From Escherichia coli (GTDB lineage: Bacteria; Pseudomonadota; Gammaproteobacteria; Enterobacterales; Enterobacteriaceae): a DNA stretch of 64,000 bases. Below, one piece after another: positions 2,173 through 28,611 of this stretch. Both the position numbers and the translations under genes were made by a program. The stretch's first letter is position 1, and every line of letters begins with the position of its first letter. The notes beneath the pieces are model-generated. The model was not told the DNA's origin and searched no databases. It was given only the letters and a program-made list of their open reading frames with translations. The stretch lies in the NCBI RefSeq assembly GCF_003018115.1, contig NZ_CP027457.1, one strand, 5' to 3'.

Positions 2173-3561
2173 ATGGAAAACAAGTCTGCTCGTGCAAAGG
2201 TCCAGGCTTTTGGGGGCTTTTTGACTGCAATGGTCATCCCCAATATTGGTGCTTTTATTGCCTGGGGTTTTATTACTGCGTTATTTATTCCCACCGGTTG
2301 GCTGCCTAACGAACATTTCGCCAAAATTGTCGGCCCGATGATTACCTATTTATTGCCCGTGATGATTGGTTCTACCGGTGGTCATCTGGTCGGCGGTAAA
2401 CGCGGCACGGTCATGGGCGGAATAGGTACTATTGGTGTGATCGTCGGCGCAGAGATCCCGATGTTCCTTGGCTCAATGATTATGGGGCCGCTCGGTGGGC
2501 TGGTCATAAAATATGTCGATAAGGCACTGGAAAAACGCATACCTGCTGGTTTTGAGATGGTTATCAATAACTTCTCATTAGGTATCGCGGGGATGCTCCT
2601 TTGCCTGCTGGGTTTTGAAGTGATCGGCCCGGCGGTGTTAATTGCCAATACTTTCGTCAAAGAGTGTATTGAGGCGCTGGTACATGCGGGTTATCTGCCT
2701 CTGCTGTCAGTCATCAATGAACCGGCGAAAGTGCTTTTCCTTAATAATGCGATCGATCAGGGCGTCTATTATCCGCTGGGAATGCAACAGGCTTCGGTTA
2801 ACGGTAAATCCATCTTCTTTATGGTGGCCTCTAACCCAGGTCCGGGCCTGGGGCTGCTGCTGGCGTTTACCTTGTTTGGTAAAGGGATGAGTAAACGTTC
2901 TGCGCCCGGGGCGATGATTATTCACTTCCTCGGTGGGATCCACGAACTGTATTTCCCATATGTGCTGATGAAGCCGCTGACTATTATTGCCATGATTGTG
3001 GGCGGTATGTCTGGCACCTGGATGTTTAACTTACTGGACGGTGGTCTGGTGGCTGGCCCAAGTCCGGGGTCTATCTTTGCTTACCTGGCGCTGACGCCGA
3101 AAGGTTCGTTCCTGGCGACAATTGCCGGTGTTACGGTAGGTACCCTGGTGTCCTTTGCTATCACTTCGCTGATACTGAAGATGGAAAAAACGGTGGAAAC
3201 GGAGAGCGAAGATGAGTTTGCTCAGTCAGCCAATGTGGTTAAGGCGATGAAACAAGAGGGTGCATTCTCGTTAAGCAGGGTTAAGCGTATCGCCTTTGTT
3301 TGCGATGCGGGGATGGGCTCCAGTGCGATGGGCGCGACCACCTTCCGTAAACGCCTGGAAAAAGCGGGGCTGGCAATTGAAGTAAAACATTACGCCATAG
3401 AAAACGTGCCTGCGGATGCGGATATCGTCGTTACTCATGCCAGTCTGGAAGGGCGCGTGAAACGTGTGACGGATAAACCACTGATATTGATTAATAACTA
3501 TATTGGCGATCCAAAACTCGACACTTTATTTAATCAATTAACCGCCGAACATAAACACTGA
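2173..3561 (+). CDS. cmtA: PTS enzyme IICB component, mannitol-type, cryptic (462 aa)
   Basis: Polytopic membrane protein with EIIC-like hydrophobic core and C-terminal EIIB-like domain (FVCDAGMGSS); length matches CmtA. Confidence 0.85.
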   Translation: MENKSARAKVQAFGGFLTAMVIPNIGAFIAWGFITALFIPTGWLPNEHFAKIVGPMITYLLPVMIGSTGGHLVGGKRGTVMGGIGTIGVIVGAEIPMFLGSMIMGPLGGLVIKYVDKALEKRIPAGFEMVINNFSLGIAGMLLCLLGFEVIGPAVLIANTFVKECIEALVHAGYLPLLSVINEPAKVLFLNNAIDQGVYYPLGMQQASVNGKSIFFMVASNPGPGLGLLLAFTLFGKGMSKRSAPGAMIIHFLGGIHELYFPYVLMKPLTIIAMIVGGMSGTWMFNLLDGGLVAGPSPGSIFAYLALTPKGSFLATIAGVTVGTLVSFAITSLILKMEKTVETESEDEFAQSANVVKAMKQEGAFSLSRVKRIAFVCDAGMGSSAMGATTFRKRLEKAGLAIEVKHYAIENVPADADIVVTHASLEGRVKRVTDKPLILINNYIGDPKLDTLFNQLTAEHKH

Positions 3562-11544: not shown

Positions 11545-12708
11545 ATGTCTGTAAATAAGATGACCGATCTGGATCTTGCTGGGAAACGTGTATTTATCCG
11601 TGCGGATCTGAACGTACCAGTAAAAGACGGGAAAGTAACCAGCGACGCGCGTATCCGTGCTTCTCTGCCGACCATCGAACTGGCCCTGAAACAAGGCGCA
11701 AAAGTGATGGTAACTTCCCACCTGGGTCGTCCTACCGAAGGCGAGTACAACGAAGAATTCTCTCTGCTGCCGGTTGTTAACTACCTGAAAGACAAACTGT
11801 CTAACCCGGTTCGTCTGGTTAAAGATTACCTCGACGGCGTTGACGTTGCTGAAGGTGAACTGGTTGTTCTGGAAAACGTTCGCTTCAACAAAGGCGAGAA
11901 GAAAGACGACGAAACCCTGTCCAAAAAATACGCTGCACTGTGTGACGTGTTCGTAATGGACGCATTCGGTACTGCTCACCGCGCGCAGGCTTCTACTCAC
12001 GGTATCGGTAAATTCGCTGACGTTGCATGCGCAGGCCCGCTGCTGGCAGCTGAACTGGACGCGCTGGGTAAAGCACTGAAAGAACCTGCTCGCCCGATGG
12101 TGGCTATCGTTGGTGGTTCTAAAGTATCTACCAAACTGACCGTTCTGGACTCCCTGTCTAAAATCGCTGACCAGCTGATTGTTGGTGGTGGTATCGCTAA
12201 CACCTTTATCGCGGCACAAGGCCACGATGTGGGTAAATCCCTGTACGAAGCTGACCTGGTTGACGAAGCTAAACGTCTGCTGACCACCTGCAACATCCCG
12301 GTTCCGTCTGATGTTCGCGTAGCAACCGAGTTCTCTGAAACTGCACCGGCTACCCTGAAATCTGTTAACGATGTGAAAGCTGACGAGCAGATCCTGGATA
12401 TCGGTGATGCTTCCGCTCAGGAACTGGCTGAAATCCTGAAGAATGCGAAAACCATTCTGTGGAACGGTCCGGTTGGCGTGTTCGAATTCCCGAACTTCCG
12501 CAAAGGTACTGAAATCGTGGCTAACGCTATCGCAGACAGCGAAGCGTTCTCCATCGCTGGCGGCGGCGACACTCTGGCAGCAATCGACCTGTTCGGCATT
12601 GCTGACAAAATCTCCTACATCTCCACTGGCGGCGGCGCATTCCTCGAATTCGTGGAAGGTAAAGTACTGCCTGCAGTAGCGATGCTCGAAGAGCGCGCTA
12701 AGAAGTAA
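11545..12708 (+). CDS. pgk: phosphoglycerate kinase (387 aa)
   Basis: [26 protein letters not shown]-terminus; ATG 11545 with GAGAGGA SD. Confidence 0.95.
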
Positions 12709-14066: not shown

Positions 14067-14167
14067 GCCTGATGCGCTACGCTTATCAGGCCTACACGTA
14101 TCCTGCAATATATTGAATTAGCAGGTTTTTGTAGGCCGGATAAGGCGTTCACGCCGCATCCGGCATG
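14067..14167. repeat. BIME: two REP palindromic units in inverted orientation
   Basis: gcctgatgcgctacgcttatcaggcctac and gtaggccggataaggcgttcacgccgcatccggcatg match the REP consensus. Confidence 0.8.
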
Positions 14168-25757: not shown

Positions 25758-26990
25758 ATGGCAAAGGTATCGCTGGAGAAAGACAAGATTAAGTTTCTGC
25801 TGGTAGAAGGCGTGCACCAAAAGGCGCTGGAAAGCCTTCGTGCAGCTGGTTACACCAACATCGAATTTCACAAAGGCGCGCTGGATGATGAACAATTAAA
25901 AGAATCCATCCGCGATGCCCACTTCATCGGCCTGCGATCCCGTACCCATCTGACTGAAGACGTGATCAACGCCGCAGAAAAACTGGTCGCTATTGGCTGT
26001 TTCTGTATCGGAACAAACCAGGTTGATCTGGATGCGGCGGCAAAGCGCGGGATCCCGGTATTTAACGCACCGTTCTCAAATACGCGCTCTGTTGCGGAGC
26101 TGGTGATTGGCGAACTGCTGCTGCTATTGCGCGGCGTGCCGGAAGCCAATGCTAAAGCGCACCGTGGCGTGTGGAACAAACTGGCGGCGGGGTCTTTTGA
26201 AGCGCGCGGCAAAAAGCTGGGTATCATCGGCTACGGTCATATTGGTACGCAATTGGGCATTCTGGCTGAATCGCTGGGAATGTATGTTTACTTTTATGAT
26301 ATTGAAAACAAACTGCCGCTAGGCAACGCCACTCAGGTACAGCATCTTTCTGACCTGCTGAATATGAGCGATGTGGTGAGTCTGCATGTACCAGAGAATC
26401 CGTCCACCAAAAATATGATGGGCGCGAAAGAAATTTCACTAATGAAGCCCGGCTCGCTGCTGATTAATGCTTCGCGCGGTACTGTGGTGGATATTCCGGC
26501 GCTGTGTGATGCGCTGGCGAGCAAACATCTGGCGGGGGCGGCAATCGACGTATTCCCGACGGAACCGGCGACCAATAGCGATCCATTTACCTCTCCGCTG
26601 TGTGAATTCGACAACGTCCTTCTGACGCCACACATTGGCGGTTCGACTCAGGAAGCGCAGGAGAATATTGGCCTGGAAGTTGCGGGTAAATTGATCAAGT
26701 ATTCTGACAATGGCTCAACGCTCTCTGCGGTGAACTTCCCGGAAGTCTCGCTGCCACTGCACGGTGGGCGTCGTCTGATGCACATCCACGAAAACCGTCC
26801 GGGCGTGCTAACTGCGCTGAACAAAATCTTCGCCGAGCAGGGCGTCAACATCGCCGCGCAATATCTACAAACTTCCGCCCAGATGGGTTATGTGGTTATT
26901 GATATTGAAGCCGACGAAGACGTTGCCGAAAAAGCGCTGCAGGCAATGAAAGCTATTCCGGGTACCATTCGCGCCCGTCTGCTGTACTAA
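25758..26990 (+). CDS. serA: D-3-phosphoglycerate dehydrogenase (410 aa)
   Basis: MAKVSLEKDKIKFLLVEGVHQKALESLRAAGY N-terminus; NAD-binding GYGHIGTQ; C-terminal ACT domain. Confidence 0.95.
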   Translation: MAKVSLEKDKIKFLLVEGVHQKALESLRAAGYTNIEFHKGALDDEQLKESIRDAHFIGLRSRTHLTEDVINAAEKLVAIGCFCIGTNQVDLDAAAKRGIPVFNAPFSNTRSVAELVIGELLLLLRGVPEANAKAHRGVWNKLAAGSFEARGKKLGIIGYGHIGTQLGILAESLGMYVYFYDIENKLPLGNATQVQHLSDLLNMSDVVSLHVPENPSTKNMMGAKEISLMKPGSLLINASRGTVVDIPALCDALASKHLAGAAIDVFPTEPATNSDPFTSPLCEFDNVLLTPHIGGSTQEAQENIGLEVAGKLIKYSDNGSTLSAVNFPEVSLPLHGGRRLMHIHENRPGVLTALNKIFAEQGVNIAAQYLQTSAQMGYVVIDIEADEDVAEKALQAMKAIPGTIRARLLY

Positions 26991-27010
26991 TTCCCCTTCT
27001 CTGAAAATCA

Positions 27011-27042
27011 ACGGGCAGGTCACTGACTTGCCCGTTTTTTTA
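27011..27042 (+). terminator. intrinsic terminator after serA
   Basis: acgggca/tgcccgt stem followed by a 7-T run. Confidence 0.7.
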
Positions 27043-27174
27043 TCCCTTCTCCACACCGTTGCCGCGTTGCGCATTCTACTTTGCGAGTCTGCTCCAGAAA
27101 ATAAATCAAAGTCAGATCAATGCGTTGTGTTTATTTAATGGGGATTTACGATGGCAGGACAGCATAGGGCTGTA

Positions 27175-27330
27175 ACGGTAAAGCCCTCACCGAAGCGAGG
27201 GCTTGAAGGAGAAGGGTTATGATGCGACTTGTCATCATACTGATTGTACTGTTACTCATAAGTTTCCCAGCTTATTAACAGTCAGTCTCAGGGGAGGAGT
27301 CATCCTCCCTTACCCTTACTCACTAAATTA
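27175..27330 (-). ncRNA. sibC: Sib-family antisense RNA (antitoxin) opposite ibs copy 1; ends approximate
   Basis: Inferred from the conserved Ibs/Sib architecture (antisense RNA spanning the whole toxin ORF and its SD); flanking hairpins at 27181..27204 and 27289..27310; ends not determinable from sequence alone. Confidence 0.4.
27219..27278 (+). CDS. ibsC: Ibs-family type I toxin peptide, 19 aa (MMRLVIILIVLLLISFPAY), copy 1
   Basis: ATG ATG start with GAAGGAGAAGGG SD; 19-codon hydrophobic ORF matching the Ibs family; below the ORF-track size threshold. Confidence 0.7.
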   Translation: MMRLVIILIVLLLISFPAY

Positions 27331-27359
27331 GGTCAAAGAATCAACGATGTCAATCAGGG

Positions 27360-27427
27360 CGATGCGGGATGTATCGCCCTGAACCGATCATTTGGATGCG
27401 GGATGTATCGCCCTGAACCGATCATTT
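27360..27427. repeat. 34-bp perfect tandem duplication carrying a hairpin
   Basis: ggatgcgggatgtatcgccctgaaccgatcattt occurs twice head to tail; unit contains the inverted repeat agggcgat..atcgccct. Confidence 0.85.
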
Positions 27428-27600
27428 GATAGACACTTCATCGCCCACGTTTACTGCCGTAATTAATCCCTTATCCCTGCAATGTGTGTCTGTCTTACAT
27501 GACGTTTTACGAGTGCGCTCGAAGAAAAAATTTAAAGGTAGATCAATGCATTGTGCATATTTAAAGAGAGTTTACGATGGCAGGGCAGCATGGGGCTGTA

Positions 27601-27756
27601 ACGGTAAAGCCCTCACCGAAGCGAGGGCTTGAAGGAGAAGGGTTATGATGCGACTTGTCATCATACTGATTGTACTGTTACTCATAAGTTTCAGCGCTTA
27701 TTAACAGTCAGTCACAGGGGAGGAGCAATCCTCCCTTACCCTTACTCACTAAATTA
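27601..27756 (-). ncRNA. sibC: Sib-family antisense RNA opposite ibs copy 2; ends approximate
   Basis: Paralogous to the copy-1 region at about 90 percent identity; same inference. Confidence 0.4.
27645..27704 (+). CDS. ibsC: Ibs-family type I toxin peptide, 19 aa (MMRLVIILIVLLLISFSAY), copy 2
   Basis: Same SD and ORF structure as copy 1, 426 bp downstream; peptide matches IbsC as I recall it. Confidence 0.7.
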   Translation: MMRLVIILIVLLLISFSAY

Positions 27757-27804
27757 GGTTAAAGAATCAACGATGTCAATCAGGGCGATGCAGGTGTGTC
27801 GCCC

Positions 27805-28353
27805 TCACCACTCCCAGACTTTCGACGGTGTAACCACCGCAGGAAGAGGGATATCCCACTCTTCAACGGGGAGTTTTTCCACCAACTGACAATCATGCGC
27901 ATAACCCACCGGTTGCATTTTATAGTGCTGCCAGTTTTGTAAGGTCCGATCATAAAAACCACCGCCCATTCCCAGGCGCTGGCCGTACTCATCAAAGGCG
28001 ACCAGCGGTGTGATCAACACGTCTAATCGGGAAAGGGGTAGCACGTCACGCACATCCAATTTTGGCTCATGGATCTTCAACCTGTTCATCACCAGTTCGC
28101 TTTGCGGATGGTAATTCAGGAACAGCAAATTACCGGCACTAAAGGGATGCAAAACTGGAAGATATACGCGCTTACCGGCGCGCCAGAGTTGTTCTATGAG
28201 TGGCTGGGTGTCGAGTTCGCCATCAAAAGAGAGGAATACAGCGACCGTATGTGCCATCACCACCGGGGGATAAGTCATCATCCGGGTAGCGGCTTGTTGA
28301 CCCATTTCCTGCTGTTGTTCCGGCGTTAACGTACGACGACGTTGCCGAATCAT
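27805..28353 (-). CDS. fau: 5-formyltetrahydrofolate cyclo-ligase (182 aa from ATG 28353; alternative upstream ATG at 28407)
   Basis: Translation MIRQRRRTLTPEQQQEMGQQAATRM...; sits immediately downstream of ssrS on the same strand; the long track ORF reading into ssrS is an artefact. Confidence 0.8.
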   Translation of the reverse strand: MIRQRRRTLTPEQQQEMGQQAATRMMTYPPVVMAHTVAVFLSFDGELDTQPLIEQLWRAGKRVYLPVLHPFSAGNLLFLNYHPQSELVMNRLKIHEPKLDVRDVLPLSRLDVLITPLVAFDEYGQRLGMGGGFYDRTLQNWQHYKMQPVGYAHDCQLVEKLPVEEWDIPLPAVVTPSKVWEW

Positions 28354-28423
28354 TTTGCGGATTTCTTGTCGGGATAATGTCAGTGGGAGTTCTGGTAGTT
28401 GCGTCATGGCTGGTGCCAGATAA

Positions 28424-28611
28424 GAAGGGAATCTCCGAGATGCCGCCGCAGGCTGTAACCCTTGAACCCTTGGTTCAAGGTGAATGTGTCGTCGCAGTTT
28501 TAAGGCTTCTCGGACGGACCGAGCATGCTCACCAACCGCGGAGCGCCACATTCTTGTGGTATGAAATATCGGCTCAGGGGACTGGCCCGCTTGCGAACAT
28601 CTCAGAGAAAT
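28424..28611 (-). ncRNA. ssrS: 6S RNA
   Basis: Minus-strand sequence reads AUUUCUCUGAGAUGUUCGCAAGCGGGCCAGUCCCCUGAGCCGAUAUUUCAUACCACAAG...GGAGAUUCCCU, matching E. coli 6S RNA as recalled; ends within a few nt. Confidence 0.9.

What the first reader, a model, noticed from the sequence alone, without database searches (positions are those of the whole stretch)
27110..27795. Tandem duplication of the Ibs/Sib type I toxin-antitoxin module between serA and fau
Two paralogous units of about 265 bp, about 90 percent identical and offset by 426 bp, each carry a 19-codon hydrophobic ORF with a strong SD, missed by the ORF track because of size. Copy 2 encodes MMRLVIILIVLLLISFSAY, matching IbsC as I recall it. 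Copy 1 encodes MMRLVIILIVLLLISFPAY, with a Ser17Pro change near the C-terminus that could alter toxicity. As I recall, K-12 has a single copy at this locus, so the duplication is a strain difference. The antisense Sib RNAs are inferred, not directly visible.
Basis: partly seen in the sequence, partly recalled or inferred. Interest (0 to 1): 0.6.

Follow-up and report, generated by a model that had tools for sequence, protein, structure and literature searches.

The report
Two tandem Ibs/Sib toxin-antitoxin modules
Between serA and fau this Escherichia genome carries two intact copies of the known Ibs/Sib small-toxin/antisense-RNA module where K-12 has one, but this two-copy form is an old, already annotated variant found in about a third of E. 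coli genomes, so it is ordinary.

Summary
Two 289-nt direct repeats, 90% identical and offset by 426 bp, each hold a 19-codon ibs ORF on the + strand and a full-length Sib antisense RNA on the - strand (Rfam SIB_RNA 137.6 and 134.6 bits, threshold 56). Copy 2 encodes K-12 IbsC exactly. K-12 and BL21 have one module here.

The event is not a recent, strain-specific duplication. The sequence between the copies occurs in 1867 of 5426 complete E. coli genomes (34%). RefSeq annotates both CDSs. The serA-side and fau-side copies are positional orthologues across strains, and their 5' flanks are only 77% identical. The window's closest single-copy relative, F9792, is a clean copy1-to-copy2 recombinant, which indicates deletion between the repeats.

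Pro17 is not an odd mutation. CCA at codon 17 is the commonest allele (2789 genomes, against 2164 for Ser and 1843 for Gly). K-12 IbsB and IbsE also carry Pro at the corresponding position, third from the C-terminus.

Codon 17 lies antisense to Sib nt 49-51, the TRD1 loop trinucleotide that Han et al. 2010 mutated to switch target specificity. TRD2 is identical in both copies, so I predict cross-repression.

Verdict: a known system and a known polymorphism, of low interest.

The parts
27125..27152 (+). Putative ibs promoter of copy 1 (-35 TTGTGT 27125-27130, 16-nt spacer, -10 TACGAT 27147-27152)
   Evidence: Placed relative to the ibsC +1 taken from the T7 primer of Han et al. 2010 and read from the sequence. 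It is a weak match to consensus and the generic promoter scan did not report it. Inferred.
27159..27317 (+). ibs mRNA of copy 1 (159 nt by homology to the K-12 ibsC transcript)
   Evidence: The +1 (GCAGCATGGGGCTG in K-12) and the +159 end come from the primers in PMC2943612, mapped onto the window. Expression was not tested here.
27205..27211 (+). Shine-Dalgarno GAAGGAG of ibs copy 1
   Evidence: Sequence. It lies 7 nt before the ATG and within the target of Sib TRD2.
27219..27278 (+). ibs copy 1 CDS, 19 aa MMRLVIILIVLLLISFPAY (Pro17 allele, codon 17 = CCA at 27267-27269)
   Evidence: The peptide is identical to the serA-proximal peptide of O145 RM9872, annotated WP_071525914.1 'IbsC'. F9792 and SK1144 carry the same accession as their single copy.
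27177..27317 (-). Sib antitoxin RNA of copy 1 (141 nt; nt 49-51 = UGG in the TRD1 loop)
   Evidence: Alignment to K-12 sibC b4446. Rfam SIB_RNA 137.6 bits over 27203-27353. MFE -55.3 kcal/mol, z = -4.9.
27325..27353 (-). Sib promoter of copy 1 (-35 TTGACA 27353-27348, 17-nt spacer, -10 TAATTT 27330-27325)
   Evidence: Sequence. These bases align to positions 1-29 of the Rfam model.
27355..27381 (.). 9-bp perfect hairpin CAGGGCGAT-N9-ATCGCCCTG at the end of unit 1; its counterpart at the end of unit 2 abuts the fau stop codon
   Evidence: Sequence. Function unknown.
27361..27428 (.). Exact 34-bp tandem duplication inside the inter-copy spacer; it makes the period 426 bp rather than about 392 bp
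   Evidence: family D3. Absent from O145 RM9872, CDC#03-98, 2014C-3057 and SCPM-O-B-8794. The junction was found in only 1 of 5426 genomes, AB66.
27429..27505 (.). Non-repeated, fast-evolving spacer between the two modules
   Evidence: Alignment A2. A query spanning it (27410-27510) matched 1867 of 5426 genomes, in identity classes of >=99%, about 93% and about 82%.
27551..27578 (+). Putative ibs promoter of copy 2 (-35 TTGTGC, -10 TACGAT)
   Evidence: Inferred as for copy 1.
27585..27743 (+). ibs mRNA of copy 2 (159 nt by homology)
27645..27704 (+). ibs copy 2 CDS, 19 aa MMRLVIILIVLLLISFSAY, identical to K-12 IbsC (codon 17 = AGC at 27693-27695)
27603..27743 (-). Sib antitoxin RNA of copy 2 (141 nt; one mismatch to K-12 SibC; nt 49-51 = GCU)
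   Evidence: Rfam 134.6 bits over 27629-27779. MFE -53.9 kcal/mol, z = -5.8.
27751..27779 (-). Sib promoter of copy 2 (-35 TTGACA, -10 TAATTT)

Best explanation
The serA-fau intergenic region holds two intact, tandem Ibs/Sib type I toxin-antitoxin modules.

How each module works: a weak promoter makes an ibs mRNA of about 159 nt that encodes a 19-residue hydrophobic membrane toxin. A strong convergent promoter makes a 141-nt Sib RNA that is fully antisense to the ORF and its ribosome-binding site. Sib pairs first through its TRD1 loop (nt 46-68, inside the ORF) and its single-stranded TRD2 (nt 99-115, over the SD and start). This blocks translation and leads to degradation of the ibs mRNA; RNase III is implicated. 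That mechanism was established for K-12 SibC/ibsC and is inferred here from near-identity.

The two-copy arrangement is an old haplotype of this locus carried by about a third of E. coli. Single-copy strains arise from it by homologous recombination between the repeats. This is shown for F9792. K-12 and BL21 carry mosaic single copies, which is compatible with the same route but does not demonstrate it.

The two Sib RNAs differ at only 6 of 141 nt, and 3 of those are the TRD1 loop trinucleotide, which is the antisense of codon 17 (Pro versus Ser). TRD2 and 90 contiguous nt are identical. Each Sib RNA should therefore repress both ibs mRNAs, so the locus would act as a doubled dose of toxin and antitoxin rather than as two insulated systems.
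For: Shown here:
- Two full-length SIB_RNA matches far above threshold.
- Two intact 19-codon ORFs, each with an SD.
- Copy 2 is identical to K-12 IbsC, and its Sib differs from K-12 SibC at one base.
- Promoter hexamers and terminator hairpins are conserved in both copies.
- Both Sib RNAs fold alike, with nt 49-51 in an 8-nt apical loop.
- The spacer is present in 1867 of 5426 genomes.
- Both CDSs are annotated in AB66, O145 RM9872, CDC#03-98 and 2014C-3057.
- c1 copies are 96-100% alike across strains and c2 copies 95-100%, while c1 versus c2 is 88-92%.
- The core is 95.7% identical between the copies but the 5' flank only 77%.
- F9792 carries c1 states up to 27334 and c2 states from 27366 onward.

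From the literature:
- TRD1, TRD2 and the G49CU51 swap (PMC2943612).
- Translation block and an RNase III role (PMC4147584).
- Membrane depolarisation by IbsC (PMC8309996).
- Seven Ibs genes in O157:H7 Sakai, and tandem repetition of ibs-sib in one intergenic region (PMC2887945).
Against: No expression or toxicity data exist for this strain. The ibs promoters are weak matches and the generic promoter scan did not pick them up. Cross-repression through TRD2 is extrapolated from SibC/SibD chimeras, not measured for this pair. The only non-coli Escherichia retrieved (sp. E1V33) has a single copy, so the deep ancestral state is not settled. K-12's single copy is a mosaic, not a simple crossover of this window's alleles.
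Confidence: 0.9

Rival explanations
1. A recent tandem duplication specific to this strain or lineage produced the second module from a K-12-like single copy.
For: K-12 and BL21 have one copy. The window's nearest relatives by flanking sequence (F9792, O169:H41 strains, 99.3% over 25 kb) also have one copy. One other Escherichia species has one copy.
Against: A fresh tandem duplication would repeat the whole period at near 100% identity. Here only 289 of 426 bp is repeated, the 5' flanks are 77% identical, and the spacer is unique. The same c1 and c2 types occupy the same positions in O157:H7-type, B1-type and O145 genomes, and 1867 of 5426 genomes carry the spacer. F9792 is c1 on the left and c2 on the right of a single crossover, which a deletion explains and a duplication does not.
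Confidence: 0.04
2. One of the two modules is a decaying, non-functional remnant, for example the Pro17 copy as a detoxified toxin, so only one working system remains.
For: Chromosomal type I loci are sometimes degenerate (PMC4147584). According to the review PMC8309996, C-terminal residues of IbsC are required for toxicity. The whole locus is dispensable, because O157:H7 TR01 has lost both modules.
Against: Both ORFs, SDs, Sib promoters and terminators are intact. The core from ibs +1 to the hairpin is 95.7% identical between the copies, including a 100-nt invariant block. Both Sib RNAs score above 134 bits. Pro17 is the only allele in many single-copy genomes (F9792, SK1144) and the commonest allele overall. 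K-12 IbsE, annotated as a toxic peptide, has Pro at the same position.
Confidence: 0.05
3. The second copy is an assembly artefact, a mis-resolved repeat.
For: Short tandem repeats can be mis-assembled. The 34-bp internal duplication is nearly unique, present in 1 of 5426 genomes.
Against: The two copies differ at 28 of 289 positions and are separated by unique sequence. The same architecture is present in 1867 independently finished genomes. AB66 independently carries the 34-bp duplication.
Confidence: 0.01

Closest known systems
E. coli K-12 ibsC/sibC (b4665/b4446), between serA and fau
   Same: Same locus and same orientation. Copy 2's peptide is identical to IbsC and its Sib differs from SibC at 1 of 141 nt. 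Copy 1's Sib differs at 5 of 141 nt. TRD2, SD, promoters and terminator are identical.
   Different: K-12 has one module and the window has two. K-12's copy is a mosaic of c1-type and c2-type states.
Two-copy serA-fau locus of other E. coli (O145 RM9872, AB66, O157:H7-type CDC#03-98, 2014C-3057, SCPM-O-B-8794)
   Same: Same tandem architecture with both CDSs annotated by PGAP. O145 RM9872 has the same peptide pair (Pro17, Ser17) and a 100% identical spacer. AB66 also shares the 34-bp duplication.
   Different: Most two-copy genomes carry the pair (Gly17, Pro17) and a spacer only 82-93% identical. Their period is about 392 bp rather than 426 bp.
K-12 tandem pairs ibsA/sibA-ibsB/sibB and ibsD/sibD-ibsE/sibE
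   Same: Two Ibs/Sib modules head to tail in one intergenic region, with periods of a few hundred bp (335 and 376 bp). This is the family hallmark noted by Fozo et al. 2010.
   Different: Those pairs are 78-85% identical over the unit and differ in both TRDs, which per Han et al. 2010 gives cognate-only repression. The window's pair is 90% identical overall (95.7% in the core) with identical TRD2.
Other tandemly repeated type I systems (ldr/rdl, zorO-orzO/zorP-orzP)
   Same: A small hydrophobic toxin plus an antisense sRNA, duplicated in tandem, with copy number varying between strains (PMC2887945).
   Different: Unrelated sequences. The antitoxins of those systems pair with the 5' UTR rather than overlapping the whole ORF (abstract of PMC5397157, for zorO).

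Membership tests
Ibs/Sib type I toxin-antitoxin (Rfam RF00113 SIB_RNA plus Ibs toxin) | Antisense RNA matching the SIB_RNA covariance model above its gathering score | tested here: met
   137.6 and 134.6 bits against 56, model positions 1-147 of 147 matched in both copies.
Ibs/Sib type I toxin-antitoxin (Rfam RF00113 SIB_RNA plus Ibs toxin) | An 18-19-codon hydrophobic ORF with its own SD, lying wholly inside the Sib gene on the opposite strand | tested here: met
   ORFs 27219-27278 and 27645-27704 lie inside Sib 27177-27317 and 27603-27743. GAAGGAG lies 7 nt upstream of each ATG.
Ibs/Sib type I toxin-antitoxin (Rfam RF00113 SIB_RNA plus Ibs toxin) | Sequence identity of the toxin to a characterised Ibs protein | tested here: met
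   Copy 2 is identical to K-12 IbsC. Copy 1 differs only at residue 17 and equals RefSeq WP_071525914.1 'IbsC'. Profile libraries could not be used because the peptides are shorter than the tools' minimum length.
Ibs/Sib type I toxin-antitoxin (Rfam RF00113 SIB_RNA plus Ibs toxin) | Target recognition domains TRD1 (nt 46-68, loop) and TRD2 (nt 99-115, single-stranded, over SD and start), each complementary to the cognate mRNA | tested here: met
   Both domains map onto both copies. Nt 49-51 fall in an 8-nt apical loop and nt 107-113 are unpaired in the predicted fold. Cis-encoding guarantees cognate complementarity.
Ibs/Sib type I toxin-antitoxin (Rfam RF00113 SIB_RNA plus Ibs toxin) | Sib promoter and intrinsic terminator present | tested here: met
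   -35 TTGACA, 17-nt spacer, -10 TAATTT, and a 10-bp GC-rich terminal hairpin, as in K-12. The generic promoter scan did not flag them because the -10 is a poor consensus match.
Ibs/Sib type I toxin-antitoxin (Rfam RF00113 SIB_RNA plus Ibs toxin) | Overproduced peptide is toxic, and Sib represses that toxicity | not testable with these tools
   Known for K-12 IbsC/SibC from the literature. Not measured for the Pro17 peptide or for this strain.
Recent strain-specific tandem duplication | The whole repeat period is duplicated at near-uniform, near-complete identity, and the second copy is absent from other lineages | tested here: not met
   Only 289 of 426 bp is repeated. The core is 95.7% identical but the 5' flank 77%. 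The spacer is present in 1867 of 5426 genomes, and c1 and c2 are positional orthologues.

The most novel reading that the evidence does not exclude
The trinucleotide that is both codon 17 of Ibs and nt 49-51 of the Sib TRD1 loop may be a hypervariable site kept different between co-resident copies by selection. Selection could act on RNA-level target discrimination or on the toxin's C-terminus.

At this one locus it exists as AGC, CCA and GGA, which differ pairwise by 2-3 bases, while about 100 nt of flanking sequence is invariant. In the allele-specific searches no genome had two CCA copies, and almost none had two AGC or two GGA copies. The pairs I saw were (CCA, AGC) or (GGA, CCA).

If this is real, the tandem pair would be an early stage on the path to the fully insulated SibC/SibD-type pairs.

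Two points count against it. TRD2 is identical in both copies, and per Han et al. either TRD alone suffices for repression. Also, only about three haplotype classes exist, so common descent alone could explain why the copies always differ.
Probability: 0.25. Interest if true: 0.4.

Novelty: already known. Interest (0 to 1): 0.15.

Why it matters
It matters little beyond correct annotation. It confirms that short type I toxin genes and their antisense RNAs are missed by length-filtered ORF tracks. It also shows that K-12 is not representative at this locus: one third of E. coli carry two modules, and the K-12 Ser17 IbsC is the minority allele. The practical consequences are that knock-out or Northern experiments on 'ibsC/sibC' in non-K-12 strains must allow for a second, nearly identical and probably cross-reacting module, and that probes must cover Sib nt 49-51 to tell the two apart.

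Tried and rejected
- The generic promoter/terminator scan of 26950-27900 found only the serA terminator and no promoters. I placed the promoters by homology to mapped K-12 transcript ends instead.
- My single genome-contig scan, using a degenerate pattern for MMRLVIILIVLL, returned only two loci: the E. coli representative with two copies, and Escherichia sp. E1V33 with one.
- Fozo et al. 2008 (PMC2597788) is not held, and the supplements of Fozo et al. 2010 are not held. I could not check whether the serA-fau second copy was listed explicitly there.
- The Salmonella IbsA preprint gave no information on locus arrangement.
- Coverage in the first 1-kb megablast was misleading, because both window copies align to the one copy of single-copy genomes. 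I replaced it with spacer-specific and allele-specific queries.
- Pfam, NCBIfam and structure tools were not used, because 19-residue peptides are below their length limits.
- I rejected a simple-crossover origin for K-12's copy from this window's alleles, because K-12 is mosaic.
- I chose not to spend a protein database search on Fau to reach more outgroups, because the polarity of the change was already shown for the nearest relative.

Full report
**Observation**

The region contains two direct repeats of 289 nt, at 27080-27368 and 27506-27794. They are 90% identical (261/289) with a start-to-start spacing of 426 bp.

Each repeat carries a 19-codon ORF on the + strand. Copy 1 is at 27219-27278 and encodes MMRLVIILIVLLLISFPAY. 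Copy 2 is at 27645-27704 and encodes MMRLVIILIVLLLISFSAY. Each is preceded by GAAGGAG 7 nt upstream of ATGATG.

Rfam SIB_RNA (RF00113) matches the minus strand at 27203-27353 (137.6 bits) and at 27629-27779 (134.6 bits). The gathering score is 56, and all 147 model positions are matched in both.

**Anatomy**

I aligned K-12 sibC (b4446, 141 nt) to the window. This places Sib copy 1 at 27317 to 27177 and Sib copy 2 at 27743 to 27603, both on the minus strand.

Each Sib gene is preceded by -35 TTGACA, a 17-nt spacer and -10 TAATTT, and ends in a 10-bp GC-rich hairpin.

The T7 and +159 primers of Han et al. 2010 (PMC2943612) define the K-12 ibsC transcript. Mapped onto the window, the ibs mRNAs run 27159-27317 and 27585-27743. 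Each follows a weak TTGTGT/TTGTGC and TACGAT promoter. A generic consensus scan did not report these promoters.

Both Sib RNAs fold into the same multi-branch structure (-55.3 and -53.9 kcal/mol; z = -4.9 and -5.8). Nt 49-51 lie in an 8-nt apical loop and nt 107-113 are unpaired. This agrees with the published TRD1 (P5 loop) and TRD2 (J1/7).

The surrounding genes are serA (25758-26990, +), fau (its CDS ends at 27805, -) and 6S RNA (28428-28611, -), the same neighbours as in K-12.

**Comparison with K-12 and the E. coli population**

K-12 MG1655 and BL21 have a single ibsC/sibC module between serA and fau.

The two-copy form is common. A 101-nt query from the inter-copy spacer (27410-27510) matches 1867 of 5426 complete E. 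coli genomes, once per genome. Of these, 55 match at >=99% identity, 309 at about 93% (the O157:H7 type) and 1503 at about 82%.

Every such locus I opened (AB66, O145 RM9872, CDC#03-98, 2014C-3057) has two ibs CDSs already annotated by PGAP. So does the E. coli representative in the GTDB-based collection.

Fozo et al. 2010 already reported seven Ibs genes in O157:H7 Sakai. They treated tandem repetition within one intergenic region as a hallmark of ibs-sib (PMC2887945). K-12 carries five copies (PMC4147584).

**Age and polarity of the event**

Across strains the serA-proximal copies (c1) are 96-100% identical to each other. The fau-proximal copies (c2) are 95-100% identical to each other. c1 against c2 is 88-92%. 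The copies are therefore positional orthologues, and the duplication predates the divergence of these lineages.

Within the window the transcribed core is 95.7% identical between copies (198/207). The 5' flank is only 77% identical (61/79), and about 100 bp of spacer is not repeated at all. A fresh tandem duplication would not look like this.

The window's closest relatives over 25 kb are F9792 and O169:H41 strains, at 99.3% identity, and they are single-copy. Site by site, F9792 carries the window's c1 state at every diagnostic position up to 27334. It carries the c2 state at essentially every diagnostic position from 27366 onward. That is the signature of one homologous crossover in the identical stretch 27335-27365 / 27761-27791, deleting one period.

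K-12 and BL21 are mosaics of c1-like and c2-like states. This suggests gene conversion or different parental alleles.

One O157:H7 strain (TR01) has lost both modules through a microhomology deletion, so the locus is dispensable.

Only one non-coli Escherichia was retrieved: sp. E1V33, whose fau is 91.7% identical to the window's. It has a single copy. Its 5' flank is closer to c1 (79%) than c1 is to c2 (69%). This weakly suggests that the duplication is older than that species split. The deep ancestral state remains unsettled.

**The Ser17/Pro17 difference**

I ran allele-specific 35-nt megablast queries, in which any 28-nt seed word must span codon 17. They found CCA (Pro) in 2789 genomes, AGC (Ser, the K-12 allele) in 2164 and GGA (Gly) in 1843. 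The O157-type fau-proximal copy (TTG CCA) is not counted by the CCA query, so Pro17 is under-counted.

Pro17 is therefore the majority allele. It is the sole copy in single-copy genomes such as F9792 and SK1144, where RefSeq names it IbsC (WP_071525914.1). K-12 IbsB (...SFPAY) and IbsE (...SFPTY) also carry Pro third from the C-terminus. Nothing suggests a defective toxin, although toxicity was not tested.

The three changed bases are the antisense of SibC G49CU51. Han et al. replaced this trinucleotide with UGC to retarget TRD1 from ibsC to ibsD.

The two Sib RNAs of the window differ at only six positions: 17, 18, 30 and 49-51. TRD2 and 90 contiguous nt (52-141) are identical. Han et al. found that either TRD alone suffices for repression. 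I therefore infer that each Sib RNA represses both ibs mRNAs, unlike the insulated SibC/SibD pair.

**Mechanism**

This is shown for K-12 and inferred here from near-identity. Sib is transcribed from a strong promoter; EσS binds the K-12 sibC promoter region (PMC4447067). It pairs with the ibs mRNA through TRD1 and TRD2, blocks ribosome binding, and leads to degradation of the ibs mRNA, with RNase III implicated (PMC4147584).

If Sib is lost, the 19-residue hydrophobic peptide inserts into the inner membrane and depolarises it (PMC8309996).

**Novelty and verdict**

The family, its tandem habit, its variable copy number and both peptides are already in the literature and in RefSeq.

Two things could be new. 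One is the near-unique 34-bp internal tandem duplication that lengthens the period to 426 bp; its junction occurs in 1 of 5426 genomes. The other is a population-level observation. The TRD1/codon-17 trinucleotide is hypervariable (AGC, CCA, GGA) within an otherwise invariant 100-nt block, and it was never the same in the two co-resident copies I examined.

That observation may reflect diversifying selection. But only about three haplotype classes exist, and TRD2 is shared between the copies, so I give that reading about 25%.

Overall this is a correct identification of an ordinary, already annotated polymorphism, and interest is low.

Noticed in passing
window 27361-27428: An exact 34-bp tandem duplication (GATGCGGGATGTATCGCCCTGAACCGATCATTTG x2) sits in the spacer between the two modules and repeats the 3' arm of the end-of-unit hairpin. 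Its junction occurs in only 1 of 5426 complete E. coli genomes (AB66, NZ_OZ547461.1), which is 100% identical to the window across fau and the last 400 nt of serA.
   Followed up: yes
L013 (E. coli O157:H7 TR01, NZ_CP033605.1) 360-640: A zero-copy allele. Both ibs/Sib modules are deleted between ibs +6 of copy 1 and the Sib -35 region of copy 2, with a 2-3 nt microhomology at the junction. The whole locus is therefore dispensable in at least one natural isolate.
   Followed up: partly
L012 (E. coli F9792) 12061-12420, compared with window 27060-27420: The single-copy relative is a clean c1/c2 recombinant, with the crossover inside the identical 31-nt stretch at window 27335-27365 (27761-27791 in copy 2). 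This is direct evidence for deletion by recombination between the repeats.
   Followed up: yes
L001 (AB66) 3320-3379: The serA-proximal copy in AB66 encodes MMRFFIILIVLLLISFPAY (L4F, V5F). Val5 is reported as the one N-terminal residue that matters for IbsC toxicity (PMC8309996).
   Followed up: no
E. coli genome search: One of the 2167 places matching the Ser17 (AGC) ibsC allele lies on a record typed as a plasmid. I did not establish which record it is, or whether this is a real plasmid-borne ibsC or a mis-assigned contig.
   Followed up: no
window 14088-14130 (-): An Rfam ES036 (CssrF) sRNA match at 40.0 bits, just above its gathering score of 37.6. It is unrelated to the finding.
   Followed up: no
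window 28428-28611 (-): The 6S RNA gene (ssrS), 139.8 bits, lies upstream of fau as in K-12. The longest fau ORF listed (27805-28551) runs into it, so the true fau start is further downstream. The fau CDS is annotated as 603 nt in six of the related genomes examined and as 549 nt in K-12 MG1655.
   Followed up: partly
window 15000-39999: No complete E. coli RefSeq genome exceeds about 99.3% identity to this 25-kb stretch, and only 6 of 5426 reach 99%. The source is therefore not closely represented there. It may be an unsampled E. coli lineage or a Shigella.
   Followed up: partly
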